This document shows, in pieces, positions 19,226 to 41,350 of a stretch of 64,000 nucleotides of DNA. The number at the start of each line of letters is the position of its first letter. The first letter of the stretch is position 1. The notes beneath the pieces are model-generated. The model made no database searches and was not told where the DNA came from. It saw only the letters and a program-made list of their open reading frames with translations. The stretch comes from the human T2T-CHM13v2.0 reference genome, Homo sapiens. The position numbers were made by a program, and so were the translations under genes. The stretch lies in the NCBI RefSeq assembly GCF_009914755.1, contig NC_060933.1; one strand, 5' to 3'.

Positions 19226-19261
<36 letters not shown>
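19226..19261. repeat. (TG)n(TA)n compound microsatellite
   Basis: Directly visible. Confidence 0.9.
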
Positions 19262-19514
19262 CTCATACAAACAATATGTATCACATTTATATGTTATCAA
19301 GCACAATCATATAATAAACCCACAAATGTCCAACTCCAAAACTAGAAAATTATTAATAGCTTGTACTACTCCTGTGTTCTTCCCCATCTGCCTGTAGGAA
19401 TTATTTCTTTTTCTAAAATAGTTTTCTTACATACATATATATATCAAAGAATGTGTTTTTGCTTATTTTTCAGCTACAAGACTGTGTCACACTGTATATA
19501 GTCTACTGTATTAC

Positions 19515-19973
<459 letters not shown>

Positions 19974-20259
19974 CTACTGTATTACTTTTTATGCCTCCAG
20001 AATTTTTCTGTGTTGTTGCAGGTGTCTGTTGTGCCTTAATTTTTGCTATTGTAGAGGATTCTATTATGTGCAATTGTGCAGCAGTCTATGTATCTGTTCC
20101 CCTGTGGATGGACATTTGGGTTGTGTCCAGTGTCTCTTGACAACCTACCTTGTGCCATGCCCCCGACCCTCCTGCCATTACTCCACAATCTAGCTACATC
20201 CACAAAGCCATGACTTCACAAAACCCTGTCTTCCACTTCTGAGCTCCAGACCATATAAA

Positions 20260-20450
20260 AGGCATAATTGTGTTTATTGAGCACTTACTCTGAGCTAGAA
20301 ATGATTCTCAACATTTTACATGTGGTAGCGCATTTAATATTCACAGCAACACAAATGGGAAGTAATATTCTTATCACCGTTTTACAAATGAGAAGCCCAA
20401 GGCCCAGAAGAGTTGAATATCTTGCTCAAGATCACACACCTTTTGCCACC
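20260..20450 (-). mobile_element. MIR fragment
   Basis: TTTATTGAGCACTTAC...TTTTACAAATGAGAAGCCCAAGGCCCAGA...CTTGCTCAAGATCACAC. Confidence 0.65.
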
Positions 20451-22087
20451 CCCCATTCCAAGTCCCATAGGCAACTCAGACTCAGCACATCCATGATGTA
20501 ACTTATCATCTTCCTCTCCAAACCATTTCCTCACTTGTGCCCTACTCTCAGTGGGGACATCTCCAATCCCCAGGCCCAAGCTGGAAACCGGAAGCCATTT
20601 CTGACTCCTCCCTCACCCACTCCATCCAAATGGAGCCCAAGTCCTGTACATTGTACTTCTTGGGTATTGATCAATCCCGGCCCTTGTCTCCACGCCCACG
20701 GTGCTGACCCATTGTTAGGTGCCCGGCTGCTGCTCCTGGGTCATCACTTCCCAGCACTCTCTTTGCAGGCCCATCTCCACCATTTCCAGCATCCTACACA
20801 CTGCGGCTCAGGTGTGCTTTCTAAACCTCACCTCACCATGTCCCCATCTCCAGAATGAAGCCCAGCCTCCTCTGCTCATCCCCTCAAACTGTAAAGTGCA
20901 GATCCCAGACCCAAAAAGGACACCCCCCACCACAATACCCTGCTCTGTCTCCTCCTCTGGGAAGCCTCCTGGCCTTGGCCCAGAGGCTGGATGTGAGCTC
21001 CCCCACCCCAAGCCCCACAGCCTCCAAGCCTCCCACTCTGCACTCACCTTCTTCCTTATAATTACCTGTCACCCATTAAACTGCAACCCTCAAAGGCAGA
21101 GCCCAGTGCATCCACTGTGCATCCCCAGTGTCCAGGCAGGGCCTGCACACAGTAGGTGGACAATAATTGTTGAAAGGCAAAATACATGAGCAATGACAGG
21201 AACCATGGGTGATACTGCCTTCTGAGCCCCAGGCAACAGAGTGATTCCTGCCTGGCCCCAGGGTCAGTGGATCCTGGCCCCTCACCCCACCCAACCTCTG
21301 CAGCTGCTTCCCTGGAGCCCTTGGAGCCCTAAGAGGCCTCTTCCTGTGTCTTCATGTGTTCGAAGGATTTCCCTCTTTGCATCTTCCTTTCCTATTCCTT
21401 CATGTGGGAGCACTCTGGCACCAGGAAGAAGAAAGAGGAGCCCAACCCCTTACCAGCCTTCAATCTATAACAAGCATTCTCAAGGGAATTAAAACTGATT
21501 CTTAAAAGGGGAGGTGAAAAAAAACTTACTCTTTTTTACGTATAAAGCACAGAACATATACAGAACATAAACAGATGTATAGTATATCTGTGGTATTAAA
21601 ATTTCATGTGATTAAGAAAAAAAAATCTGGAAGAATACTAGGGAAGGCACTAATGAAAAAAAGGCTAAAAAATTCTGATCTACCTTCTTGGGCCATGCCT
21701 TGTCTGGTCCAAGAACCGGCCAGAACTCGGGGAAGTGAACAACCAGGGGAGAGTCTAGAGTCCAATCTCAGGATCCCCTCAAAGTATTTCCAAAGCCAAC
21801 CCCCCATCAGTCAGCTACAGTCCTTTCACCAAAACCGCCCTTCCTTCCCCCTTGCCTGAAAATCCCTCATTCTGTTTCTGTCATTCTTTCATCTTACCTT
21901 GTTCCTACTGAGGGCGCAGGTCAGTTCTTCCCCATTCTCCCCCTGGGGCACCCCAGTTCCCAGGGCATGAAAGACTTGAGGTGCCTCACCTCTACACCTT
22001 GGGCTAAGACATAGCCCTAGAGCTCCTGGAAGAACCCAGGAGGGAAGCCCAACCACAGGAGGCCCCCAGGAAGTGGGGGTACTGCTG

Positions 22088-22426
22088 TGGGACAAGCTTC
22101 TCTTTATTGGGGAAGGGATGGGATCACAAATAATCTCTGCTTAGAAGTGCTCTAGGGCCATGGATTCATGTAAGGGTGGGGCAGGGTGGACTGAAGATCT
22201 GTTGGCAGGGCTCATAGAGATGAGGGTAAGGGGAGAGATCATGGGTTCATGAGATCCCATCTTGGGCAATACAGTTATCCCATGGTCTTCATATGCCACA
22301 GAGTCCTCCAATTTCAGTGGCTCCCGTGGGATGGTGGAGCCAATGAAGACCAGGTAGATGATGCCACCTAGAGAGGCACCCAGAAGTGGTGCCACCACTG
22401 GCACCCACCACAAGTTCTCCCCATTG
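22088..22426 (-). pseudogene. AQP7: AQP7 paralogue exon 8 (last; native stop TAA at 22143-22141, polyA signal 22108-22103)
   Basis: NGENLWWVPVVAPLLGASLGGIIYLVFIGSTIPREPLKLEDS...ESMALEHF* (ORF track 22141..22521). Confidence 0.95.
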
Positions 22427-22784
22427 CTGCAGGCAAGAGGCAGAGGCCAGCTGAGGGGGCTGATGCCCAGGACAGCACCCTCATCCACCTCGGGCCAAGA
22501 CTGGTTGAGCAGAGGAGTCATCCTCAGGCTAACCCAGGAAACACCCCCAACCCGGGGCCCTGGTCAGCCTCAGCCCGATTCAGGGACAGGGTTGACACTC
22601 AGTGCAGGTGCAGGATCTGTATCTGTACTGGCCTGGGGAAATGTTGGGACTCACTCCTGCTCCCCAGGCCACCTGGGGGCTCTGCAGGACCCTCCTGTGC
22701 TGCCCCTCACATCACCCCCCACACCTCAACACACAGGGGCCCCACAGAAAATCTCAAAGGAATGGGCCTGGGCAGGGGAAGTAC

Positions 22785-23003
22785 CTGAAGACCTGTTTGC
22801 CCCAACCAGCAATGAAGGTGAAGATGCGGGGGGGGCAGGTCCCGGGATGGATTGATGGCATATCCTGTGTTCATGCCATGGGACACCCTGATGATGACCA
22901 CGAGGATGCCTATCACCAGCGCGTGTGTTCCTGGCAGTGCTGGGTTTTTCTCCCGGTCCGTGATGGCGAAGAGACACAGCTGGAGCATCCCGGTCAGCCA
23001 CTC
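22785..23003 (-). pseudogene. AQP7: AQP7 paralogue exon 7 (219 nt; NPS motif; +1 frameshift at C8 run)
   Basis: EWLTGMLQLCLFAITDREKNPALPGTHALVIGILVVIIRVSHGMNTGYAINPSRDLPP, then shifted; the AQP7 continuation RIFTFIAGWGKQVF is present in another frame. Confidence 0.95.
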
Positions 23004-23213
23004 CTGAGGAGCAGATGCTGTGGCAGCTCACCTGGGCCCCTCCCCAAGCCACAGGACCTCGGCAGTGCCCCAGACCCAAGCCCACCAGCAGAGACACATC
23101 TTGGTACAGTCTCCATCCAGAGTTCTTGTCCTGTCTATCCGGAGGGACTCCCTGCTGGCTCCGTCCTGAGGGGTGGAGGGCAGGGGGAGGGGTACTCATC
23201 CTGGACCACTGAC

Positions 23214-23332
23214 CTCATTCAGGAAGCCCCGCCACAATGTCATGTGATCAGGAAGGTAGGTGGCAAAAATGCCAGCTGTAGCAACGGGACCGGTCACCAT
23301 CAGCTCTCCACCCGAAAAGTGGAGAATGGCCA
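23214..23332 (-). pseudogene. AQP7: AQP7 paralogue exon 6 (119 nt)
   Basis: AILHFSGGELMVTGPVATAGIFATYLPDHMTLWRGFLNE; CAG/GTCAGT. Confidence 0.95.
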
Positions 23333-23540
23333 CTGTGGAGACACAGACTATCATGCGAACCTGCCCCCAACTAAGCCCCACCGGGGTCCCAGAAATGAGG
23401 TTATAGGTTAGAGGGTGGGAGACCTCCAAGCCTTTTTTCTCCCAGCTATTTTTTACAAATCAGGACACTGAGGTCCAATCTGCCCATATTTCATAACAGG
23501 CAGTTGAGGCCAGAGGCGGACACCCGGGCAGGACGCTCAC

Positions 23541-23678
23541 TGTAGAAGAGTCTGTAGATGGTGGCAGCCGCCAGGAAGGAGCCCAGGAACTGCCCCAGCA
23601 CATAGACTGGAAACTTCCTCCAGGGCACACGGCCCAGTGCACAGTTAGTGAAGCTCACAGCTGCGTTCATGTGGGCTC
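23541..23678 (-). pseudogene. AQP7: AQP7 paralogue exon 5 (138 nt, NAA motif)
   Basis: GAHMNAAVSFTNCALGRVPWRKFPVYVLGQFLGSFLAAATIYRLFY; CAG/GTGAGC. Confidence 0.95.
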
Positions 23679-24106
23679 CTGCGGGCAGCAGGCAAGTGTG
23701 TCAGGGAGTGAGAGCAGAACAAACAACAGTGACAAACAGTATGAGAACAACGATGGCTAGTGTGTATGACAGCATGCTCCGTGACAGAGTTCTCTCCTTG
23801 AGCCCTCACAACCACCCCGTGAGGCAGGGGCCACCATCTTCGTTTCACTCTTAAGGAAACTGAGGAACACAGAAGGCGATGGCTTGCCTAAGATCACCCA
23901 GCCAGTGAAAATGGTAGGTCGGGGGGGCCAGGAAGAATCTGGGGCAGACACGTCATAGGCACGGGCTTCAGAGGAGACTTCCTCCCGCCCGGTGGCCAGG
24001 CTGAGGCACTGGCTGTGCTGGCAAAGGAGCTGGCTGAGGCAGGCAGGAAAGAGCCTGTTGGGGACACCTGGTCTTGCCCGGTCCGGCAGGGCCTGGGCTC
24101 ACTCAC

Positions 24107-24230
24107 CAGAGATGCGGCCTGCCACGTGCACTCCCATGGTGACTCCGAAGCCAAAACCCAAGTTGACACCAAGGTAGCTCCCAAATGTTTTATTTAGAAG
24201 CATATGGGCCACGGAACCAAGGCCGAATAC
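24107..24230 (-). pseudogene. AQP7: AQP7 paralogue exon 4 (124 nt)
   Basis: VFGLGSVAHMLLNKTFGSYLGVNLGFGFGVTMGVHVAGRIS; TAG/GTGAGT. Confidence 0.95.
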
Positions 24231-25631
24231 CTACAAGGGAGGGCCTCTAAGGGGGCTGCCTGCCCAGAAGCCCCAACCTCAGAGGAGGGCTCAGAGCTCA
24301 GTTCTAGCTCCTCACCCCCATGCCCTGGGCCTCCCTGGCGTTGCCTCGAAGACCCTCTGCCATGCCCTCTTCCTCCAGAGCCTTCCCTCCTCACTGCCTC
24401 CTCTCCTTGCCCCTGCTGAGGCCTCTCAGACCTGAGCCACTGAGAGCCGGGTGGAGCGGCAGAGTTAGAAGCTCTTACTACAAACATCCAAGCACCTCAG
24501 CCCCAGGCCCACCTGAAGTTTTGGGGTAAGGCAGGGCTGCAAGGAGGGGATGGCTGGCATGCATTGCACCCCCTCAGAGTCCCTCACACTTCAGGCTGAC
24601 CTGAAGGAAGTTTCTTCAAGGGACCCCCAAATCCATCCATGCCTGACTCTGCCAGGAACCCCTCCCTACACATGCACACACTCCACCGCAATTCCCACAA
24701 TGCTGGAACAGTGGGGCCCTAACTGTCTTGCCCTCAGCTTCATTTCCACTGACCTCAGGCGGCATTCCCAAGCTGCTGCTTCTTGCCCATCCCTCACGGC
24801 TCCTCAGATAATGCTGCCTTCACAGGGGAAGGGGCCTACCTTCAGGCCCATTACCCTCAGTCTAGAGCCACTGTTCCCTTCAGCCCTGGCTCCTGTGCTA
24901 TCCTCTCCCTCTGCAGAGGCCTCCGTCTCCCCCATACCTTCCATCCTCCCATTGATCGGTTCCCACACACTGGAGTCTCATCCTTCCCAGCAAACTGTCC
25001 CACCCCTGCCCAGTGTCCTTCTCCAGCTGTGGGTTCCTGGTTGCCCCCTCCCTGTTTCAGTCAGGCTGCAGGAGAGAACACACTGGCCAGCTGCTTCACC
25101 CCTTCCCTCGCACCCCCTCCTCAATCTGGCTTCCACTTCCACATGTCACAGACACCAAAGCTCTCTCCAAGGGCTCCAGCAGCCTCCTGATTTTCCAAAG
25201 GTCTTTTCAGGCATGGTTTTACCACGTAGACAGTCTCATCTATGCCTGATGCACTGAAATTCCCATCATCTCCGTGGGGGAGCCAGATGCCTATTTGCAA
25301 ATCCCCACTGCAACTCTCCTGGTGTTCCGCGGGCGTCTCAGGCTCTGATGAAGGTTCGCCATCTCACAGCACACCTGCTCCTCACTCTATGTTCCCCATC
25401 CCCGTTGGCCAAGCCAGAAACTCAGATGTTGCAAATGATAGTTAAGCACTATTATTCTCCCCCACTTGACAGATGGGTAATCTGAAGCTTAGAGAACTTG
25501 AATGGCTTGTCCAAGGTCACACAGCCTGTACATGGTGAGCCAGGATTAAATCCAGGCAGTTACCTGTGACAGATGGCCTCAAACCAAACAACTGCGCTGC
25601 TCCATGCATGCCTTGCTTTCTTGTGCCTCTG

Positions 25632-26253
<622 letters not shown>

Positions 26254-26254
26254 A

Positions 26255-26423
26255 GAATATCCTAATAATTTTACATTGATTGCATCTTGAAATAGGATTT
26301 TTGCTATGTAGGTTAATTATTAAAATTAATTTCACCTGTTGCTTTTTACCTTTTTAATGTGGATACTAGAAAAATTTAAATTATACAGATGGCTTGTATT
26401 GTATTTCCCCTGGAGAACTCTGT
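26255..26423 (+). mobile_element. MER3/MER33-like hAT fragment
   Basis: ATTAAAATTAATTTCACCTG...TTTAATGTGGATACTAGAAAAATTTAAATTA. Confidence 0.6.
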
Positions 26424-26533
26424 TCTAGAGTTGATAAAGGAGAAAACCTGAAGAATTGTAGACATAAGGGCCGAAGTCAAAGCCGACAGAGGAGAAGGCC
26501 CCAGGAGAGGGTACAGGGTAAGAAGGCAGACCA

Positions 26534-26941
<408 letters not shown>

Positions 26942-27604
26942 TCATTTTGTGTTGTTTTCAGTGGAGAAACTTCAGTATGTTTATAGGCTGAGAGAGGGAT
27001 GGGCTGAAGATAAAGGACAGAGAAAAAGGACAGAGTAAAGTACCTGAATAGGCTGGACAGCTGGATTGGTGCAGAAGTGGAGGTGTCCTCCAGGAAGGAG
27101 AGGACCCCGCCCCAGCCAAGGGGTGATATGTGGATACACGGGTGGTTAATGGGTCTGGTGGTAAGAGGGACAAGAGGGTGAGCTGAACATAGGAAGTGTT
27201 GATTATTTTACCTATCAAGCAGCAGATCAAGCCATTTGCTGATTTAAAAAAAAAAAAAAAAGTCAGAGTACAGAGCAGCTTTGGGGAAGTCTGAGAAAAT
27301 GTGAAATAGCCCAGATATGGTGGGGGAGAGGCAGCTGAGCAGAGCCCACTGGGTCCCTCAGAAGCCCCAGGACAGAAGCAGGGGAGCCCAGAGCTGGGCT
27401 GGCTTCAGATCCAGGATAAGATACAGCAGGAGAGGACAGGAACAGATGGGGGTGCAGGGGGGAGTGAGGTCAGGACAGGTTGACAGGCTGGCAGGGTCAA
27501 GAGGTAGAGGGACTGGAGGAGGCATGGAGGGTCTGAAAACAGAGGGGCCCCCATGGCCTTTCCTGCATTCCAATACCATGTGCTAAAAATACTGGATGAG
27601 CATA

Positions 27605-27905
27605 GGCCGGGCATGGTGGCTCACGCCTGTAATCCCAGCACTTTGGGAGACTGAGGCAGGCCGATCATGAGGTCAGGAGTTCGAGACCTGCTTAGCCAAC
27701 ATGGTGAAACCCCGTCTCTACTAAAGATACAAAAAATTAGCCAGGTGTGGTGGCACATGCCTGTAATCCCAGCTACTCGGGAGGCTGAGGCAGGAGAATC
27801 ACTTGAACCCGGGAGGCAGAGCAGTGAGCTGAGATCACACCACTGCACTCCAGCCTGGGCAACAGGGTGAGACTCTCTCAAAAAAATAAAATAAATAAAA
27901 TAAAA
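27605..27905 (+). mobile_element. AluS (Sg-like)
   Basis: Dimer; degenerate TSD AAAATACTGG(A/G)TGAG. Confidence 0.9.
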
Positions 27906-28812
27906 TACTGGGTGAGTGAATGAACCCCACATGATTCCTTGTGTCAGGGTTGCCAACTGGCAACTCATGCACCTAATTCATCCAGCGCACAGATTCTGTT
28001 TAGATAACTTGGTTTTGAAGAACAGAAGTTTCCATCTCTCTTGAAAAATGAGCAGCTCAGGCAACACTGGCCTGCATTCCACCCTCCATGGCAACAGTCA
28101 GCTGGAGTGGCAGCAGCTATACAGCCTTGCACAGATTGGCACTCTGCAGCCAGCCAAAGTCCCCACCGCCCTGAGTGGCCGCTCTCTTGGCCCCCGTAGT
28201 ATGTGATCTACAACCCTTGCCCCGTGTCTCACGTGTATGGCTGGTTTTCCAGGGCCCGGATGGCTCCAGCCCCTCCTCTCCCTGATCAGTGAATGTGGCC
28301 TAGCCCATCCAACTCTCCCCCACAGCCAGGAGGCCAGCTCCAAGGGCAACACACCTGGAAGCTGCAACACAGATCAGTCCACTTCCCTTGTCCTGGCTGC
28401 AATAAATGGGGCCAAGGTCACACTAGCTTTTTTGGCAAAACATTCACCCTGGTGACTCACTGAGATTCCTATATATATATTTACAAAAAAAAAAAGAAAA
28501 AAAAAGCCCTCACTTCTTGGCACAGCCTGGCAACTAAAAATAACAACACCACAATATCCGATATAGGCTTACGCCTCACAAAGTTCTTTTACAAGTGCTA
28601 CTGTCTTCAATCCTCACAACAAATCTGCACAGCAAGAATTTTTCTCCCACTCTATAAGTGGGGAAACTGAGGCCGAGAGAGGCATCTTGAACTACCTGAA
28701 AGTGAGGACCTTACCCTGGCTGGGGGAGCATTAACAAGCCAGTCTTTAAAAGCTGGCAATATTTAAGCTAAGGTACAGAGCATAGAGGTTAAGGGTCAAG
28801 ACTGTGATATTG

Positions 28813-29099
28813 GGCTGGGCACGGTGACTCATGCCTGTAATCCCAGCACTTTGGGAGGCCGAGGTGGGAGGATCACTTGAAGTCAGGAGTTCAAGACCAG
28901 CCTTGACAACATGGTGAAACCTTGTCTTTCCTAAAAATACAAAAATTGGCTGGGCATGGTGGCATGCACCTGTAATTCCAGCTACTCCAGAGGCTGAGAC
29001 GCAAGAATCGCTTGAACCCGGGAGGTAGAGGTTGCAGTGAGCCGAGATTGCACCACTGCGACAAAGCAGGACTGTATCTGAAAAAAAAAAAACAAAAAA
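28813..29099 (+). mobile_element. AluS
   Basis: Dimer; TSD AAGACTGTGATATT; inserted in a MIR. Confidence 0.9.
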
Positions 29100-29705
29100 G
29101 ACTGTGATATTAGACTGCACTGGATTTAATCTTGACTTAAAGTGTGACCTTGGGCAAAAGGCTTAGTCTCAAGGAGCCTCAGTTTTCCCATCTGTGAAAC
29201 TGGGATAATAATAGTACCTGCTTCACAGGGCTATTGTGAGGATTTGGGAAGATGCTGCACGTAAGGGGCTTAGCATCACAGAGCCCGGGATGCATTAGGT
29301 GATCAATGAAAATCTCAACAAAAGGAGGAGGAACACAGATGTGGGCAGGTATCAAGCATGTGGGCGGTGCCTATTTCCCTAACAGCTCTCAGAGGATGCA
29401 CCCTCCTGCCTCCGAGGTTCCAAGGGTTAACAGCCCTCATGGGGCTGGAATGTCTTGTGGTAAGTGAATTACTTTGCCCTGGATTAAGGAGGGACAGGAT
29501 CCAACTGCTGTCCTCACAGCTCAGGAGCCAAAGCAGGTGGGGAGGTAAGAGAGGAGTAGGGGAGGGCCAGAGACAGAGAGGAGACAGCAGCTAGAGCACC
29601 CGTCGTAATAACAAGGGACCAATACATGGGTACCACACTGGGTGCTGAGACTTGGCCTTCTTCACACAAGTCCTCCTGTTAACAAATAAGGAAGCTAAAG
29701 TTGTG

Positions 29706-29999
29706 GGCCGGGCGAGGTGACTCACGCCAGCAATCCCAGCACTTTGGGAGGCCGAGGCAGGAAGGTCACCTGAATTCGGGAGTTTGAGACCAGTCTGGCC
29801 AACATGGTGAAACCCCATCTCTACTAAAAATAGAAAAATTAGCTGAGCACAGTGGCACGTGCCTGTAGTCCCAGCTACTCAAGAGGCTGAGGCAAGAGAG
29901 TCACTTGAGTATGGGAGGTGGGGGCTACAGTGAGCTGAGATCGTACCACTGCACTCCATCCTAGGAGACAGAGTGAGACCCTGTCTCAAAAACAAGAAA
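29706..29999 (+). mobile_element. Alu (J/S)
   Basis: Dimer; TSD AAGCTAAA(G/T)TTGTG. Confidence 0.9.
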
Positions 30000-31240
30000 G
30001 CTAAATTTGTGAACAGTTAAGATACTTGTGGATAGTCGCACAGCTAGAAGATAACAGAGCTAGGATTCAAACACAGCTCCAAAGCCCACGAAGGCCTAAT
30101 TCTACACGATATAAGTGAGAAGTCAGGCTTTAAGCCAGGGAGAGACCTGCCCAAGGCAACTGGTCACTCAGTGGCAGGGTCAGGCTAAGAACCCTGGTGT
30201 TCCAATTTCCTCTCTCCCTTGAGCTCCATGGGCCCCACCACACACACAAACAGCCTCTCTCACCCCACCTTCCTCTAGCATGCACCTGGCTGCCTTTGCC
30301 TCCCTTCCCAGAGGCTGCCCCTTCTTTTTCTAGACCCTGGACCCTGCATAAGATGCAATAAACATGGCTACAGTCATGTTAAGGGCAGAGGCTCACTGGG
30401 GTAAGTGGCAGGGCTGAAGCAGGTGGAGAGGGAGCAACCTCACATCCTGCCTGCAGTCTGGATTCTGTCCCAATCACACACTAAAGAAGAGCCCTTGTCA
30501 AGGTTACCAGCAACCTCCACGTTGGCAAACCCTAAGGCCCCTTGCCAGTGCTCACCTCGTGTGGCCCATCTGCCGCTGCCCATGCCGCTGACGGCTTCTT
30601 CCTGGTGGAACCACTGCCCCCTCTGTCACGCAGTCGGCTCTGGTTCTCCTCCCACCTCTCTGACCATTCCTTCTCAGGCTCCTTTGTGTGCCCCTCTTCA
30701 TTCCTCAGGGCTCTGTCCTCAAACCATCCTTTTCTCTTTCTGTACACTCCTTCTAGACAGTGTTGACAACCACCACCTGTGTTGTGATGAACTTCAACTT
30801 TTTCCTTCCAGACCAAGCCTCTCCTGAGCTCCAGCCCCTTGCCTGTGTTTAACTATCTCCTGGATTTCCCCACAGGCATCTTGCCTCTCACCCTGTGCTG
30901 GGTCCCGTGCTCCAGAACAGCTCATCGGCGCTTTGCCCACATGTTCTGTTGGCAGAGTCTCCCCGATTCTGTCTTCCACAGCCCTCTCAAACATGTGCTT
31001 TCTTCTCCAACCCCAGATCAGTCATCACCCTCTCTGTCCCAGATCAAAAACAGCCTCTTAACTGGTTCCTTCTTGCCAGCCTTGCCTGTCCTGCTTATGC
31101 TCCACACTGCACCCAAAATTACCTTTAAAATCCAAATCTGATCATGTCACTCCCCTGCTTGCCAGCCTTCAACATCGCCCATTGCCCTCTGGATTCATTA
31201 TCAGAGCCTGATCTTCAAGTTTCTCTTCAATCTCTCTCTC

Positions 31241-31553
<313 letters not shown>

Positions 31554-31831
31554 TCTTTAATCTCTTTACTCTGGGTTTCCCTTCTCCCCATTTCCAGCCT
31601 TGCCCCGGATACCCCAGTGCATGATTTCATTTGACCCCCACATATTATGAGCCCTTTCTGTCCAAAAAGACTTGATGAGAAAGCCCCCCCTCCTTACTTT
31701 CCTCGCTGCTTCCCCAGGCTCCCAGCTCAGAGGCAAGGAATGGACAATGTGACCCATGGGGTCAGAATGGGGAGGGGGTCATGGAAGGCCATGGCAGAGC
31801 CCCACTCACTTCGTGCTGCCCACCCACTCAC

Positions 31832-31961
31832 CATCATGACATATGTGCTCATGAACTCAGCCAGGAACTCTCGCTCCATCTTCCTCTCATCTTCCTCGCA
31901 CCATATTTCCTGGATCTTTGCTATCACGGACCAGGAGACCATTTTGGAGCCACGGGTGGAC
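31832..31961 (-). pseudogene. AQP7: AQP7 paralogue exon 3 (130 nt, net +12 nt in-frame insertion)
   Basis: STRGSKMVSWSVIAKIQEIWCEEDERKMEREFLAEFMSTYVMM; CAG/GTGAGT. Confidence 0.95.
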
Positions 31962-32799
31962 CTGATACAGTGGCCCGAGCCCATGGACAGTAAGGAGACT
32001 CAAGTCTGCCTGCTGCCCATCGGCTCTTCAACTCACAGCTGAGTTAATAGGTAACCCAGCAGACTTGCCACACACACCTCCTCTTGCCTGGAGCAGCTGG
32101 GACAGCTGGAATTGGAGACACTTGAGAGCCATGGGGACATGGAGAGGAACTGGGGTAGATGGCCAAGCCATGCCCCTTGTAGTTGGGACTGGACCAGTAA
32201 AAATGGCACACCAATGAGGCCACTTTGCAGACGGGCAGGTGGGGAGCTGAAAGTGCAATCCACGGTGCCAACAAGCCTCTGGGAAAAAGCAGGGTGGGAG
32301 AGAGCAGGCTGGAAAGTAGAGCTCAGTAGTCTATGTCTGTCCATCTGTCTGTCCGCCTATCTGCTAGAGCCAGAACTTTGGGGTCACAGGCCAGGGCCTG
32401 GCAACAGTGAGGCACTCTACAAACAGCATGAGGTGTGACAAAGTCTGCTGCTTAGCTCTGTAAACAGCACTGAGTGCTGAAACATGCGCCAGGTTCTGTC
32501 AAAAATGAAGGGGTCAGCAAAATGCACCAGGCTGTGCAACCAGGTCAGTGCAAACAGAGGTTTGTGAGAGAGTGAGTGAATGAATGAATGACCAAGAGAG
32601 AGGGAGGGAGAAAAGGAAGGACTGGATCTACTTCCTGGTGTATCTTCAGTGCCCAGCACCATGCCAGGCACATAGTAGATGTGCAATAAGTATTTGTTGA
32701 ATGAGTGAAAACTGGGGAATCTGTCTTACTCCCAACTAGATCCTCAGAGCTTCCCAAAGGGCCTGGCACTTGATTTATATTTAGTTAAGTGCACGGTTA

Positions 32800-33223
<424 letters not shown>

Positions 33224-33312
33224 GAGGAAGAAGAGGGATACAGATACCTCTAAGTATGGCCTTAGTCACTCTGCTATCTCACTGTCTGCATGCCCGGAAG
33301 CTGACACCAACC

Positions 33313-35031
<1,719 letters not shown>

Positions 35032-35713
35032 TGGCATGAGATGGGCAGAGAGGGGCCAGGGCCAGGTGGCAGAAGGCCTCATGGCCCACATTAGGGAGTC
35101 TGAACTCTACCAGAGGGCCATGGGCCAAGTGGAGGATTTCAGCAGGAGAGCTGCCTCCCCTGTGGAGGCCAGGATGGAGGAAGTGGAGTGGAGGCAGGGT
35201 GAGCATCAGCTTCTCCACAGATGGGTGGAGAAGTGGTGGCAGCCTGAGCCACAGAGATGGCAGTGCCAATGGCCACAAGAGCACAGTCAAGCTGACAGGC
35301 TTGGTGTTTGGTTAGAGAGGGAAGGGAGCGGGGCAGCTCAGCGATGCCCTCAGGTCCTGGCTAGGGCAGCGGAATGACTAGCGTGGGGCACAGCAGAGAA
35401 GCTGTGGAAGAATGGACAAGGAGGCCCTTTCTGGACATGTTGAGTGTGAGGAGCCCGCTAGACACTTGGGTGGGATGGCCAGTGAGGAGGCAGCTGGTCA
35501 TGTGGTCTCACTTACAGACACATTTGGAGGACAGCAAATCACAGATGGTCATCTGAGCCATGGGCATAGATGAGAGAGCTCAAGGAGAGGGTACAGACTA
35601 AGAAGAGGGGCCCAAGAAAGCCAGCCTACAAAGCAAGAAACTGACAGCCAACCAGATCCCCTAAGTTATCTGTTAACCAAGGAACTAAATAGCTAACAAC
35701 TCACTAATGCCTG

Positions 35714-36042
35714 TTTCTTTTCTTTTTCTTTTCTTTTTTTTTTTTTTTTTTTTTTTGAGACAGGGTCTCACTCTGTCACCCAGGCTGAAGTGCAGTGGCA
35801 CAGTCACAGCTCACTGAAGCCTAGACTTCCCAGGGTTCAAGTGATCCTCCCACCTCAGCCTCCCAAGTAGTTGGGACTACAGGAGCATGCCACCTTGACC
35901 GGCTATTTTTTCCTATTTTTTGTAGAGATGGGGTTTTGCCATGTTACCCAAGCTGGTCCCAAACTCCTGGACTCAAGCAATCCTCCAGCCTCAGCCTCCC
36001 AAGGTGCAGGGATTTCAGGCATGAGCCACTATGCCCGGTGGC
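35714..36042 (-). mobile_element. AluJ
   Basis: Antisense dimer with J-type features. Confidence 0.85.
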
Positions 36043-36213
36043 TTACTAACCCTTTGACTAACCTATCAAAAACCAACTAACTGATTCTCCTGTTAACCAG
36101 CTATTAACTCATTGAATTATCTAATCAACCAGTCAACCATAAACTATCCAACTAACCACGAGCCAACAATTCAACCTGCTAACCAACATTTCTTCATTCA
36201 ACAAACATTTGTT

Positions 36214-36538
<325 letters not shown>

Positions 36539-37394
36539 TCAAGCACCAGGGATACAAAGTCAAAACCCACTCTCCACTCTTGGGTCATTCTGTTTAATAG
36601 AAGAGATGGGTAATGGCAACACCACCAGAGAGAAGCAGCCTGGGACTGGGGGAACTCAGGGGAGGCATGGGAGGTGAGGCCTGAAGGGAGTTTTGAAGAA
36701 TGGGCGGGTGGTGGCCTGACATGGCCATGGAGGAGTAGGGTGGTGGTAGAAAGAATGGTGGAAGCTGTGCACATTCTAGATATTTTAGGAGATTGGTGAC
36801 TGGATGTGAGGCATGGGGGAGAGGGAAGTATCAAGGACATGACCTTGACTTCTGGCTTGAGCAACTGAAGATAAGGGGACCCCTGACTGAGCCAAGAGCA
36901 CAGGAGGAGTGGACTTGTGGGGGGCGGAGGAAGCTGTTTCCATCTAGGAGCTGAGTTGCCTGTGAGACACAAGTGGGTCTCTAGAAACAGGATCTAAAGC
37001 CCTGGAAAGAGATGTAGGCTAGAGGCAATGATGTCAACAGAGGGGCACTATTCATTCTCTCCGTCCAAGTGTACAACAGGCAAATATCCCTGCTTGTGTG
37101 GAGCTGACAGCAATGAAATGTAATAAGTAAGTACCTTTGTATAAGCGAAGGTACCAGCTCCTATGGAAAAAAACAGAGCAAGGGGAGGGGAATTGGGAGT
37201 GCAGGGGCTGGAGATGGGGTGTGATTTCAAATAGGGCAGTCAGAGTAATCCTTGTTGAGAAGGTGGCCTTGGAGCAAAGCCATGAAGGAGATGAGAGTGG
37301 GCTGTATGTTAACTGCAGAAAGCCTCTCAGATGGAGGGAATAGTCACCAGAGGACTCTCAGCATGTTTGAAGAAAGCAAAGAAAGTCAGTGTGA

Positions 37395-37793
<399 letters not shown>

Positions 37794-38154
37794 CTAACAA
37801 GGACTACATAGGCAGGGCCTTGGCCATTGCAAGGACTGGCTCTTTTTCACCCCAAAGACAGCTGAGCCTGAGAGGGTGAGAGGTGCTGAGTGCAGTTGAG
37901 TTGAAGGCCACCTGCATGCCTTGACCCTCATCCAAGTATTTCTGAGCCTCCCCTCACCCCAGGACCCAGCCCAGGCAACAGGTGGAAGATGCTTTTCTTC
38001 TGGGACCTCAGAGACGAGTGGGTGGGTGGGGAGGAGGAGGTCGAGGGGGGACAGCTGCCCCAAGGGAGAGGCTGAGGATGGAGCAGGGAGGGCACTGAAG
38101 TGGGCTGGGTGGAGGACAGGGGGCTGGAGGGTGAGAAGAGGGTGGGGTACTTAC

Positions 38155-38205
38155 CGCCTGTGCCCAGATGCTTGAACCATGTTTTGTCCTTCAGATTTGT
38201 AGATG
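38155..38205 (-). pseudogene. AQP7: AQP7 paralogue exon 2 (ATG at 38180-38178; MVQASGHR)
   Basis: CAG acceptor, GTAAGT donor, 26 coding nt. Confidence 0.92.
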
Positions 38206-38593
38206 CTGAGGAGCCAAAGAGAGGTCACTAGGGCTGGAGGACACAGAACTTGGCCCCACACTTCCATCAGACCTTGGTCCCCAGGGGAGAAGCCCTGGGG
38301 CAGCTCCTGCTAGTGCCACTCCCTTAACCCAGCCAAGCAACAGGGAGGGAGGAGCGGTGCTCAGCCAATGAGGCGACACCCTGGAGCCCCACCCCACCCA
38401 TGCTGGCCCCAGGACCCCAGCCCCAGGCCAGACCCTCCAGTGCTCCTGCTGACCTTCCCTGTCTGCAGCCCAGCTTTGGACTGTGGAGATGCCCTCAGCC
38501 TCTACTCAGTGGCTCCAGCCTCATATTTGCGTGCTATACCTTTAACCTCAAGCCCTCTTGCTGCTAACTTAAGCTGTGACTGTCCAGGACCTG

Positions 38594-38616
38594 CACACAC
38601 ACACACATGCACGCAT

Positions 38617-38648
<32 letters not shown>
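38594..38648. repeat. Interrupted (CA)n microsatellite in AQP7-paralogue intron 1
   Basis: Directly visible. Confidence 0.9.
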
Positions 38649-38649
<1 letters not shown>

Positions 38650-39304
38650 AGGTGAACACACAGGATGAGGCCCTGAAAACTCATTTCACCCGTGTACCTC
38701 ACCCAAAAATTCCCCTTTGTACTCTTATCTTTATCTCTAACTGACAGCATGAAGGTAGCCCGAAGTCCCCTCACCCTGTCTGTCCTCCTGATTCTCTAGC
38801 CCAGTTCCCTCTAGCTCCAGCACAGACTCTTATCTCCAGCCCTGACTGCTGAAACCCTCCAGCCCCAGCTCCAGCCCCTCAGGAGGGGACTGCGTGGGAG
38901 GAATGACTCCAGCAAGCCGGCAGCTGACCCGTCTCCTGCCTGCACGCCTCCCGCTGTGGTCCACTGCTGGTGGTCTTCAGCTCTCTCCTCGTCCCACCCC
39001 CATGGTCTGCTGACAGCCCAGCCCAGTGCATCCCTGCCATCTCTGCTCTGCCACTGGTCCTCCCAACAACCAACTTACAGGTAAGGAAACTGAGGCCCAG
39101 AGAGAAGGTGTATGTGCCTGTGTCACACAGCAACACAGGACTGCACCATAACAAGAAAGCTGGGACTTCCACTCCCAGCCGGGGCTCCTTCCCCAAACAA
39201 TCCCTCAGTCACCTCCTCGCTGTATGGTACCCAGCGAATGGCCCTTCCAGATCTGGGCACTGAGGAGGCTGTCCCATCCCCACCCTGCCTGGAGCCCCAC
39301 TCAC

Positions 39305-39452
39305 TCTGCTGAAATGTCTTCTGATTCTCAGCCTCTGCCTTGGGGGCTTCTCAGTTAAAGCGCATCTTGATCTTGTTCCTCTGTGACTGTCCCTGTCTCA
39401 GCTTCCACCCCCAGCTGGGGCTCAGCTATCCCTGTGTCCCCAGTCCAGAGCC
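39305..39452 (-). pseudogene. AQP7: AQP7 paralogue exon 1 (5'UTR)
   Basis: Matches the recalled AQP7 5'UTR (GGCTCTGGACTGGGGACACAGGGATAGC...ACATTTCAGCAGA); donor GTGAGT at 39304-39299; TSS approximate. Confidence 0.8.
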
Positions 39453-39501
39453 TGCCTCTCAGCCCTCCCAGGGCGGCCTCGAGTGCTGCTCCTGCTCCTC
39501 C

Positions 39502-39514
39502 AGGGGAGAGGTCA
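39502..39514. promoter_or_regulatory. DR1-type PPAR response element (AGGGGA-G-AGGTCA) of the AQP7 promoter
   Basis: DR1 motif about 50-62 bp upstream of exon 1; AQP7 is an established PPARgamma target with a proximal PPRE. Confidence 0.7.
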
Positions 39515-39566
39515 GTAAGGCAGGGATTTGGCTGGTGCCACTTGAACCAAGTCCAGATGCACTGCC

Positions 39567-39573
39567 CAAAATA
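39567..39573 (-). promoter_or_regulatory. Insulin response element-like heptamer TATTTTG; a second, TGTTTTC, lies at 40081-40075
   Basis: T(G/A)TTTT(G/C) cores at about -120 and -625 from exon 1, consistent with described insulin-repressive elements of AQP7; short motif. Confidence 0.5.
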
Positions 39574-40666
39574 ACATCCCTCATCTGGCCAGCAGTGCCG
39601 TGGAGACCGAGTTCTGAAGCAGGCCTTTGTGAGGTCAGAGGTGGAGTTCTGGGTGGGCACTCTGGGCCTCACAGTCCCAGAGGAAAGGCCTGTCCTCCAA
39701 GCCAATGTGCAGCCTGACTCTGGGGCCAGCGCCTGAGGAAGCCCTCCCTGAGCCCCAGCCCTGGGGAAGGCTGAAGAGGCCTCTGAACCCCCAGCGCTGG
39801 GGAGAGCTGTGCAGAATAGGACTGGAGGTGGAAGTGTTGGAGATTAACAGCCAGATGGAGGGGACGGCGGGAGGCCCTGGGTCAGTCCTCAGGGAACCCC
39901 ATTCTGAAGGGGGAGAGGGAAACTCAGGCCCAGTCCTCAGGGGCCCCCAGTCTGAGAGGAAGGAGGACACACGAGCCATATTTGCAGAGAGACACCAGCC
40001 TGCGAGAGGAGGTAGAAGCCCAGGCCTGGCCCTCCGAGGGCCCCTAGTCTGAGGAGCAGTCCACCTGCCCTCGGGAAAACACCTCCCTTAGGAAAGGCCA
40101 GCAAGGCCCCCGTAAAGGAGCCACAGCTGGATCGGGGCATGGGGCTCGGGGCCCAGCGGCGTGGGAGCTCCGGGACCGAGGTGCAGTCAGGAGAGGCCCT
40201 GGGGGCCAGCGGCAGTCCAAGAGGACTTTTGGAGCCAAGGCCTGACTGGGTCTCAAACAATGGGGCAGGCAGTTTGGGGTTTCAGCAGGTGGCCCAGTGC
40301 TGAGACACAAGGGAGTTGTTTCTGGTCTGCAGACACTGAGGACACTTGCTATGTGGCGTGGTGGATGGTGGGTAAGTCCTGGGAATTTCTGGCACCAGGT
40401 TCCATGGGTGGGAAGGGGCATAGGATTCAGTTGTCCAAAGCTCAGGTGTGGGAATGGAACTGTCCTGTAGAGGGTGCCAAAGACCAGGTCTGGAAACTGC
40501 ATAGCCCCAGTCCCCACCCCCACACACACCATCCCACCCCTTCCAGCTTTTTCTGCAGATCTTTCTGCAGGGGTGAGGCAGGGAGAGGAAGGGGTCGGCC
40601 GCAGTTCCGGGGCTTCCTAGTCAGAAGCCCTCTGTAAGGCACTAACTTCCCTCTTCCCTCTGCAGA

Positions 40667-40964
40667 TTTTTTTTTTTTTTTTTTGAGACGGAGTCCCACT
40701 CCACCCAGGCTGGAGTGCAGTGGCACAATCTTGTCTCACCACAGTCTCTGCCACCCAGTTCAAGTGATTCTCCTGCCTCAGCCTCCCAAGTAGCTGGGAT
40801 TACAGGCATGCACCACCAAGCCCAGCTAGTTTTTTTGGATTTTTAGTAAAGACAGGGTGTCACCATATTGGTCAGGCTGGTTTCGAACTCCTGACCTCAG
40901 GTAATCCACCCGCCTCGGCCTCCCAAAGTACTGGGATTATAGGTGTGAGCCACTGTGCCCGGCC
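40667..40964 (-). mobile_element. AluS
   Basis: TSD TCCCTCTGCAGATT on both sides. Confidence 0.92.
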
Positions 40965-41242
40965 TCCCTCTGCAGATTCTACGTGGGCTCTAAGCAGCCT
41001 CTAAATTGCCTGAACACCTAAGGCTTATTTGCTAGTTGACATCTGATCTATTCTGACACTGAAAATTTCAGTGCTTTAGGGTGCTAAAAGGAAAAAAGAG
41101 GGTTTGCAAGGAATCCTGCAGTTGCTGAGGGGGACCCTGATAAGGGAATTTTAAGCAATTATAGTAAGTGTCACTAAACTTTTTAAAAAATCTTTAACCA
41201 GATTAAACTTACACAATTTTGTTATAATTTGTGTTTCTGCAG

Positions 41243-41350
41243 CTTCCAATTGTGGACAAGATAAGGACCATTGCCCAGGCTGTCTATGGAGCCAAAGATA
41301 TCGAACTCTGTCCTGAGGCACAAGTCAAAATAGATCGTTACACTCAGCAG
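41243..41350 (+). pseudogene. MTHFD1L: MTHFD1L-derived exon (108 nt)
   Basis: TTTCTGCAG|[36 protein letters not shown]|GTAAAA. Confidence 0.92.

What the first reader, a model, noticed from the sequence alone, without database searches (positions are those of the whole stretch)
22785..22845. A single homopolymer base (C8 vs C7) separates this pseudogene from a full-length 346-aa aquaglyceroporin
Seen: all exons, splice sites, start, native stop and polyA signal are intact. Coding lengths are 26+130+124+138+119+219+286 = 1042 nt, one more than 347 codons. The extra base lies in the G8 run at 22828-22835 (CTG CCCCCCCC GC; AQP7 has seven C). Inference: a mononucleotide run is a slippage-prone and reversible lesion, so paralogues, alleles or MMR-deficient cells could carry the open version. 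It could also be a long-read homopolymer error.
Basis: partly seen in the sequence, partly recalled or inferred. Interest (0 to 1): 0.72.

Follow-up and report, generated by a model that had tools for sequence, protein, structure and literature searches.

The report
Broken AQP7 copy, sibling frame reopened
This duplicate of the human glycerol-channel gene AQP7 is out of frame by one extra C that three sister copies share, and a fifth copy (AQP7P1) has an open frame again with ten C in this assembly, but all six duplicates carry an arginine at a pore-filter position where glycerol channels have a small residue, so a reopened copy would likely not carry glycerol.

Summary
It is very unlikely to be an assembly error: 4 of the 5 chr9 duplicates carry the +1 (C8, C8, C8, C7+G).

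The slippage idea holds up elsewhere. The fifth chr9 copy (AQP7P1, chr9:77.63 Mb, listed as a pseudogene) has C10 and an open 347-codon frame with GT-AG introns. It nests among the +1 copies (bootstrap 100; alternatives rejected), so its frame most likely reopened by +2.

The claim that one base separates this copy from an aquaglyceroporin holds for length, probably not for function. All six duplicates carry G214R at the helix-5 filter position (G in 161 of 161 orthologue clusters; G191 in GlpF; His in AqpZ), plus A176E and L217H. This copy adds V34E and N194K. dN/dS on duplicate branches is 0.60-0.74, not distinguishable from neutral.

Verdict: a decaying hominine segmental-duplication pseudogene. 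The real lead is AQP7P1's open frame, untested across haplotypes, transcripts and protein.

The parts
19239..40990 (-). AQP7-derived duplicated segment (about 21.7 kb, 95.7% identical to AQP7): whole gene plus about 1.4 kb upstream of exon 1
   Evidence: blast of the AQP7 region against the window
39305..39570 (-). exon 1, 5' UTR; holds a DR1-like motif (about 39502-39514) identical in all 7 copies; its reading as a PPAR element is recalled, not tested
38155..38205 (-). exon 2, start ATG at 38180-38178 (26 coding nt)
31832..31961 (-). exon 3 (130 nt; 12 nt longer than AQP7, as in all six duplicates); private V34E at 31876-31874
24107..24230 (-). exon 4 (124 nt); V59L, F74 kept
23541..23678 (-). 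exon 5 (138 nt); first asparagine motif NAA kept; T98S, private S132R
23214..23332 (-). exon 6 (119 nt)
22785..23003 (-). exon 7 (219 nt; 218 in AQP7 and the chr2 copy, 221 in AQP7P1)
23001..23003 (-). A176E codon (GCG to GAG): a charge where orthologues have small or hydrophobic residues; in all duplicates, including the gorilla and chimpanzee proteins
22887..22889 (-). G214R codon (GGG to AGG): helix-5 position of the aromatic/arginine filter; in all six human duplicates and the chimpanzee protein
22878..22880 (-). L217H codon (CTT to CAT)
22842..22853 (-). second asparagine motif NPS and filter arginine R229, kept
22828..22835 (-). C8 run (G8 on plus): the +1 frameshift
22141..22426 (-). 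coding part of exon 8 in the native frame (286 nt, helix 6 and tail; W253L, Y266S), ending at TAA 22143-22141
22289..22291 (-). TGA ending the frameshifted 297-aa frame (60-residue novel tail without a transmembrane-like stretch)
22103..22108 (-). AATAAA polyadenylation signal, kept in all 7 copies

Best explanation
This is an unprocessed AQP7 duplicate whose C8 frameshift is shared with three sister copies and likely arose once by replication slippage in their ancestor; the copy is likely a decaying pseudogene whose product would not carry glycerol even if the frame reopened, because G214R, A176E and L217H are already in it. Shown: the lesion, its sharing, the missense changes, the tree, and AQP7P1's C10 open frame nested among +1 copies. 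Inferred: (1) the duplicate lost constraint early, as A176E and L217H are in the gorilla duplicate protein and G214R in the chimpanzee one; (2) any transcript would escape exon-junction decay, the stop being in the last exon, and give a 297-aa product without helix 6, likely misfolded and degraded; (3) the run changes length now and then (one +2 event in 0.024 substitutions per site of tree length), so open frames appear by chance, as in AQP7P1; (4) an arginine at position 214, beside R229, likely narrows or blocks the filter.
For: Run states in 7 of 7 copies: C7 (AQP7), in-frame C6+A (chr2), C8, C8, C8, C7+G, C10. Tree on 19.8 kb of alignment, all nodes 100; AU test rejects AQP7P1 outside the +1 copies (p 1.6e-69 and 4.4e-49 whole gene; 0.00016 and 0.010 on 5.2 kb around the run). 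Two sister copies also have TGA at codon 29. G214 is G in 161 of 161 orthologue clusters with a residue there; A176 never E in 155; L217 never H in 162. The position is 12 residues before the second NPA: G in two and A in one other human aquaglyceroporin exon, G191 in GlpF, G in PduF, His in AqpZ. PMC10010469 (passages and section 14 read) lists position 5.57 as a filter residue and predicts that Gly to Arg in AQP7 changes substrates. In residues 36-247 this copy has 8 residues seen in no orthologue (AQP7 has 1); leave-one-out median 0, with 3 of 117 orthologues at 8 or more. Duplicate branches: 33 nonsynonymous, 18 synonymous.
Against: dN/dS point estimates (0.60-0.74) are below 1, and the test has little power (p 0.10-0.35). 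The copy is fixed at two per genome in 2494 of 2504 people (PMC11463660 Table S1) and keeps promoter, splice sites and polyA signal. No G214R transport assay was found or run; PMC7339978 defines the AQP7 filter as F74, G222, Y223, R229 and does not name G214. Frames are open in AQP7P1, the chr2 copy (AQP7B) and a chimpanzee protein, which could reflect selection; the protein database shows only open copies, so the last case is biased. Orthologue clusters include isoforms and are not independent. Only one human haplotype (CHM13) was read.
Confidence: 0.8

Rival explanations
1. The duplicates are an altered but working channel family (water-only, or another solute). Open members (AQP7B, AQP7P1 with C10, a chimpanzee copy) are translated, and run length is an on/off switch among copies and alleles.
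For: AQP7P1 has an open 347-codon frame with GT-AG introns, is present in 98.68% of 1000 Genomes samples and was used as a Schwann-like cell marker by single-cell RNA and in situ probe (PMC7293718, passages read). NAA, NPS, F74, Y223 and R229 are kept. Water-only AqpZ has a bulky residue (His) at 214. HGNC lists AQP7B as protein-coding (PMC9825485).
Against: AQP7P1 adds S216Y, A126V, T190V and Q245L at conserved sites; AQP7B has 12 unseen residues, including G180R and G207S, and a GC donor; the chimpanzee and gorilla duplicates have R229W. Each open copy is damaged differently. The RNA signal cannot be assigned to one copy at 98.5-99.7% identity. HGNC says AQP7B is not yet studied.
Confidence: 0.08
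2. Duplicate products (the 297-aa truncated form or the AQP7P1 form) do not conduct but join AQP7 tetramers and dampen glycerol release, or the RNAs act on AQP7 expression.
For: The stop lies in the last exon, so decay is not expected. The proximal promoter is kept. AQP7P1 and AQP7P3 reads rise with AQP7 in a CD36-correlated set (PMC8463699, passage read). Aquaporins are tetramers (PMC7339978).
Against: No protein evidence found. Co-expression may be cross-mapping of reads. The truncated form lacks a helix-6-like stretch (best 19-residue hydropathy 0.35 against 2.23). An antisense MTHFD1L-pseudogene transcript is annotated across this copy's exon 1 and promoter. No brain expression listed for this copy.
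Confidence: 0.08
3. C8 in this copy is an assembly homopolymer error and the copy is intact.
For: Homopolymers are the usual residual error of long-read assemblies (general knowledge). Reads could not be examined.
Against: The same +1 is in three other copies at 1.5% divergence, one with an internal C>G that no longer is an 8-run. GENCODE's GRCh38 gene for this locus (ENSG00000277737) is also an unprocessed pseudogene; its sequence was not seen.
Confidence: 0.02
4. The C10 in AQP7P1 is the assembly error or a private CHM13 allele, so no human chr9 duplicate is commonly open. This concerns the sibling; the probability given is for this sub-claim.
For: C10 is seen in one haplotype only; long C/G runs are hard for short reads (general knowledge); the annotation calls it a pseudogene; no human database protein with the extra proline appeared among the best 120 of 140 hits (90% clustering could hide one).
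Against: A two-base error is less usual than a one-base error (general knowledge). A chimpanzee protein of the same clade has the extra proline, so this state occurs in nature.
Confidence: 0.4

Closest known systems
Human AQP7 (aquaglyceroporin, MIP family PF00230; PDB 6QZI, 6KXW, 6N1G)
   Same: Eight exons, splice sites, start, NAA/NPS motifs, F74, G222, Y223, R229, G264, polyA signal; 3.4% nucleotide divergence over the gene.
   Different: +1 frameshift at codon 232-234; G214R, A176E, L217H, W253L, Y266S, V34E, N194K; 4-codon insertion; only about 1.4 kb of upstream sequence.
AQP7 duplicate family: AQP7B (chr2), AQP7P1, AQP7P4, AQP7P5, FP325317.1 (this copy), one further copy at chr9:79.9 Mb
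   Same: Known hominine expansion: seven copies, at least four 'potentially functional' (PMC449870, passages read); six pseudogenes on two chromosomes (PMC7408487, passages read); human-duplicated family ID_294 (PMC11463660 Table S1). Coordinates match the copies found here.
   Different: The passages read do not describe the shared C-run lesion, AQP7P1's open frame in CHM13 or the shared G214R. The supplement of PMC7408487 (Figure S4, on these pseudogenes) could not be read and may.
Compensatory frameshift pairs and resurrected pseudogenes (PMC8935012, passages read)
   Same: A second indel restores the frame after a first, typically in weakly constrained genes.
   Different: Here both indels fall in one C run (+1, then +2), on different branches of the tree, adding one proline; that paper set such delayed cases aside.
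Coding mononucleotide repeats hit in microsatellite-unstable tumours (BAX G8, MSH6 C8; recalled)
   Same: An 8-base C/G run in a coding exon is of the length that slips without mismatch repair.
   Different: Here a one-base loss would open a frame rather than close it; not tested, and the product is predicted to be impaired.

Membership tests
MIP / aquaporin family (PF00230) | Match to the MIP profile | tested here: met
   Exon 7 alone scores 35.3-37.3 bits, cut-off 25; best solved matches are AQP7.
MIP / aquaporin family (PF00230) | Six transmembrane helices in one frame | tested here: not met
   The frame shifts after residue 237; the 60-residue tail has no hydrophobic helix (0.35 against 2.23). 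Open in AQP7P1 and the chr2 copy.
MIP / aquaporin family (PF00230) | Two asparagine motifs (NAA and NPS in AQP7) | tested here: met
   Both kept.
Aquaglyceroporins (GlpF, AQP3/7/9/10) | Small residue (Gly/Ala) at the helix-5 filter position 5.57 | tested here: not met
   Arg in all six duplicates; G in 161 of 161 AQP7 orthologue clusters, G191 in GlpF, G/G/A in three other human exons.
Aquaglyceroporins (GlpF, AQP3/7/9/10) | Asp after the second NPA-Arg; filter F74, Y223, R229 | tested here: met
   NPSRD, F74 and Y223 kept.
Aquaglyceroporins (GlpF, AQP3/7/9/10) | Glycerol permeability at the plasma membrane | not testable with these tools
   Needs an oocyte or liposome assay; the AlphaFold model of AQP7B was too poor to use (pLDDT 42.6).
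Unprocessed (duplicated) pseudogene | Introns kept and a disabling lesion | tested here: met
   Eight exons, +1 frameshift.
Unprocessed (duplicated) pseudogene | Loss of purifying selection | tested here: inconclusive
   33 nonsynonymous to 18 synonymous, dN/dS 0.60-0.74, p 0.10-0.35 against neutral; excess of residues unseen in orthologues.
Polymorphic pseudogene (open and closed alleles segregating) | Both alleles of this copy present in people | not testable with these tools
   Only CHM13 could be read; differences between paralogues are shown, between alleles are not.

The most novel reading that the evidence does not exclude
AQP7P1, listed as a pseudogene but nearly fixed in humans and reported as a marker of Schwann-like cells, was resurrected by two more C in the same run and makes a 347-aa hominine-specific aquaporin with an arginine-plugged filter. 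It acts as a water-only channel or as a brake on AQP7 tetramers, and C-run length switches the chr9 copies, this one included, on and off between people and in mismatch-repair-deficient cells.
Probability: 0.08. Interest if true: 0.75.

Novelty: new member of a known kind. Interest (0 to 1): 0.4.

Why it matters
If AQP7P1's open frame is common and translated, the human gene count gains an unannotated aquaporin, and the old question of whether any extra AQP7 copy works (raised in PMC449870) becomes directly testable with two constructs. If the copies are dead, as is more likely, two practical points remain. AQP7B's protein-coding label looks doubtful, given G214R, G180R, G207S and a GC donor. 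And some catalogued AQP7 'SNPs', such as the filter Gly to Arg, match fixed differences of the duplicates and may be read-mapping artefacts.

Tried and rejected
Assembly error of C8: rejected by sharing among copies. C10 as a retained ancestral state in AQP7P1: disfavoured by the AU tests and by zero sites grouping the other three close copies against it; whether the state before the human-chimpanzee split was C8 or C10 is unresolved, as the chimpanzee protein has the extra proline. Conversion of AQP7P1 from AQP7 or AQP7B: flanking variants within 200 bp are of the chr9-duplicate type. Rescue by the alternative exon-8 acceptor of AQP7 isoform 5: does not return this copy to the native frame; the AGs that would (offsets 10, 106, 121) lack a pyrimidine tract. 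Ribosomal +1 slippage on the proline codons: considered, not testable, no evidence. AlphaFold model of AQP7B from 30 orthologues: pLDDT 42.6, unusable, no fold search run. The wide profile search was still queued, so family-wide conservation rests. A complex prediction was not run: it would pass by likeness to solved AQP7 tetramers. Literature: ten searches. AQP7 + segmental duplication + CHM13 gave 0 papers. None of 20 listed of 22 papers for G214R mentions AQP7. None of 20 papers holds LOC102724922. The 33 listed of 34 AQP7P1 papers were seen as listings, passages of three read. PMC10924726 supplement: no AQP7. PMC6232157 and PMC6262577 passages did not name G214. Subscription papers are not searched.

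Full report
OBSERVATION. The eight annotated exons, spliced on the minus strand, have GT-AG introns throughout. The extra base lies in G8 at 22828-22835. As read, the frame is 297 aa and stops at 22291-22289 in the last exon, 135 nt past the last junction and about 180 nt before AATAAA at 22108. The 60-residue tail has no hydrophobic helix (best 19-residue mean 0.35; AQP7 2.23).

THE FAMILY IN THIS GENOME. Exon 7 and exon 3 each have 7 matches in CHM13. I fetched 30 kb around the six others and found all eight exons in each. Names: the chr9:33.4 Mb copy encodes the 342-aa AQP7 of the solved structures; the chr2:95.1 Mb frame reads the same as the database protein named AQP7B (compared by eye). 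Table S1 of PMC11463660 (supplement rows read) gives AQP7P4 at 40.5 Mb, AQP7P5 at 42.8 Mb, AQP7P1 at 77.63 Mb and FP325317.1 (ENSG00000277737) for this copy. All four are listed as unprocessed pseudogenes; this copy is at two per genome in 2494 of 2504 people and AQP7P1 is present in 98.68%. The 79.9 Mb copy is not among those rows. The expansion is known (PMC449870, PMC7408487; passages read).

THE RUN. States are C7 in AQP7, in-frame C6+A in AQP7B, C8 here, C8 at 79.9 and 42.8 Mb, C7+G (still +1) at 40.5 Mb, and C10 in AQP7P1. So 4 of 5 chr9 duplicates carry +1, which makes an assembly error very unlikely. AQP7P4 and AQP7P5 also have TGA at codon 29. The 79.9 Mb copy is, like this one, one base from an open frame. 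AQP7P1 has an open 347-codon frame, with one extra proline and GT-AG introns.

ORDER OF EVENTS. A tree on 19.8 kb of alignment gives (AQP7, AQP7B, (this copy, ((42.8, 40.5), (79.9, AQP7P1)))) with every node at 100. This copy is 1.5% from the other four; AQP7P1 is 0.26% from the 79.9 Mb copy. Trees placing AQP7P1 outside the +1 copies are rejected for the whole gene and for 5.2 kb around the run. One length change in 0.024 substitutions per site of tree suggests about 40 times the point rate, from a single event and so only an order of magnitude. This copy has kept C8 over its 0.9% branch. A chimpanzee protein of the same clade (V59L, Y64F, T98S) also has the extra proline in frame; only its protein was seen, and databases show only open copies, so the state before the human-chimpanzee split is unresolved. 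C10 rests on one haplotype and could be private or a sequencing error (about 40%).

WOULD AN OPEN COPY WORK? All six duplicates share G214R, A176E, L217H, E202H and Y266S. Among 162 orthologue clusters (173 proteins held; 11 left out: human, chimpanzee, bonobo and gorilla entries, one fish fusion and my query), position 214 is G in 161 of 161 with a residue, 176 is never E, and 217 never H. The clusters include isoforms, so they are not independent. Position 214 lies 12 residues before the second NPA. There, three other human aquaglyceroporin exons have G, G and A (AQP3, AQP10 and AQP9 by position, names recalled), GlpF has G191, PduF has G and water-only AqpZ has His. PMC10010469 counts generic position 5.57 as one of four filter residues and predicts that Gly to Arg in AQP7 alters substrates; that 5.57 is G214 follows from the spacing I206, G214, G218 (my mapping). 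Against this, PMC7339978 lists the AQP7 filter as F74, G222, Y223, R229 only, and no assay of G214R was found. This copy adds V34E, S132R, Q192R, N194K and W253L. In residues 36-247 it has 8 residues seen in no orthologue, AQP7P1 9, AQP7B 12, AQP7 1; the leave-one-out median is 0, and 3 of 117 orthologues reach 8 (AQP7P1's count includes one column produced by the proline insertion). The gorilla duplicate has A176E and L217H but G214; both ape duplicates have R229W. Damage therefore came before the frameshift and differs among lineages. Duplicate branches carry 33 nonsynonymous and 18 synonymous changes (AQP7-versus-all sites and codons 29-30 left out): dN/dS 0.60-0.74, p 0.10-0.35 against neutrality, which neither shows nor excludes residual constraint.

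EXPRESSION. The AQP7-derived segment spans 19239-40990 and keeps about 1.4 kb upstream. Proximal promoter, a DR1-like motif and the polyA signal are conserved in all copies, so transcription is plausible. AQP7P1 was used as a Schwann-like cell marker with an in situ probe (PMC7293718) and rises with AQP7 in a breast tumour gene set (PMC8463699), but at 98.5-99.7% identity such signals cannot be assigned to one copy. [quoted passage not shown] No brain expression is listed for this copy.

MECHANISM AND VERDICT. Most likely (0.8): a hominine segmental duplicate under relaxed selection, first damaged by missense changes in and near the pore, then frameshifted by slippage; any transcript would escape junction-based decay and yield a five-helix product that is likely degraded. 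Slippage can reopen the frame and probably did in AQP7P1, but the product is predicted not to carry glycerol. Rivals are an altered working channel (0.08), a dominant-negative or RNA role (0.08) and assembly error (0.02). It works like a duplicated pseudogene with a compensable frameshift; it fails two membership tests for a working aquaglyceroporin (six helices; small residue at 5.57). The family is known. AQP7P1's open frame in CHM13 and the shared G214R were not found in the ten searches listed under Tried and rejected, but RefSeq's annotation at 77.6 Mb, the supplement of PMC7408487 and subscription papers could not be seen. Interest 0.4.

Noticed in passing
L005:1501-1721; G000:C9:77631003-77648485 (AQP7P1): C10 run and an open 347-codon frame with canonical splice sites in a copy listed as an unprocessed pseudogene; adds A126V, T190V, S216Y, Q245L.
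   Followed up: partly
G000:C9:79897763-79915232 (L008-L010): A second copy that is one base (C8) from an open frame, with no other stop; not among the AQP7 rows of PMC11463660 Table S1.
   Followed up: partly
G000:C2:95109699-95109705 (AQP7B): The exon-5 donor is GC, database isoforms skip exons 4-6, and the protein has G180R, G207S, G214R and R234S, although the gene is listed as protein-coding.
   Followed up: partly
window 22887-22889 and AQP7 codon 214: dbAQP-SNP lists the filter Gly to Arg change as an AQP7 SNP, and AQP7 has the most entries (353) of 13 aquaporins; the change is fixed in all six duplicates, so it may be a mapping artefact. V59L and silent A103, recalled as reported AQP7 polymorphisms, are likewise fixed in all five chr9 duplicates.
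   Followed up: no
window 38441-41350: The MTHFD1L pseudogene's first exon lies in intron 1 of this copy on the opposite strand, so its transcript crosses exon 1 and the promoter; its second exon (95% to chr6:152.2 Mb) starts about 250 bp past the AQP7-derived segment and is present beside all six duplicates.
   Followed up: partly
window 22289-22367: The frameshifted tail ends in the same reading frame as the C-terminus of AQP7 isoform 5, which uses an acceptor 59 nt into exon 8.
   Followed up: yes
window 31832-31961 (exon 3): All six duplicates have a 12-nt in-frame insertion near codon 29-30 that looks like a local micro-duplication; two copies turned its Trp codon into TGA.
   Followed up: no
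P0006 (gorilla) and P0129 (chimpanzee): Both ape duplicate proteins have R229W at the filter arginine, absent from all seven human copies.
   Followed up: no
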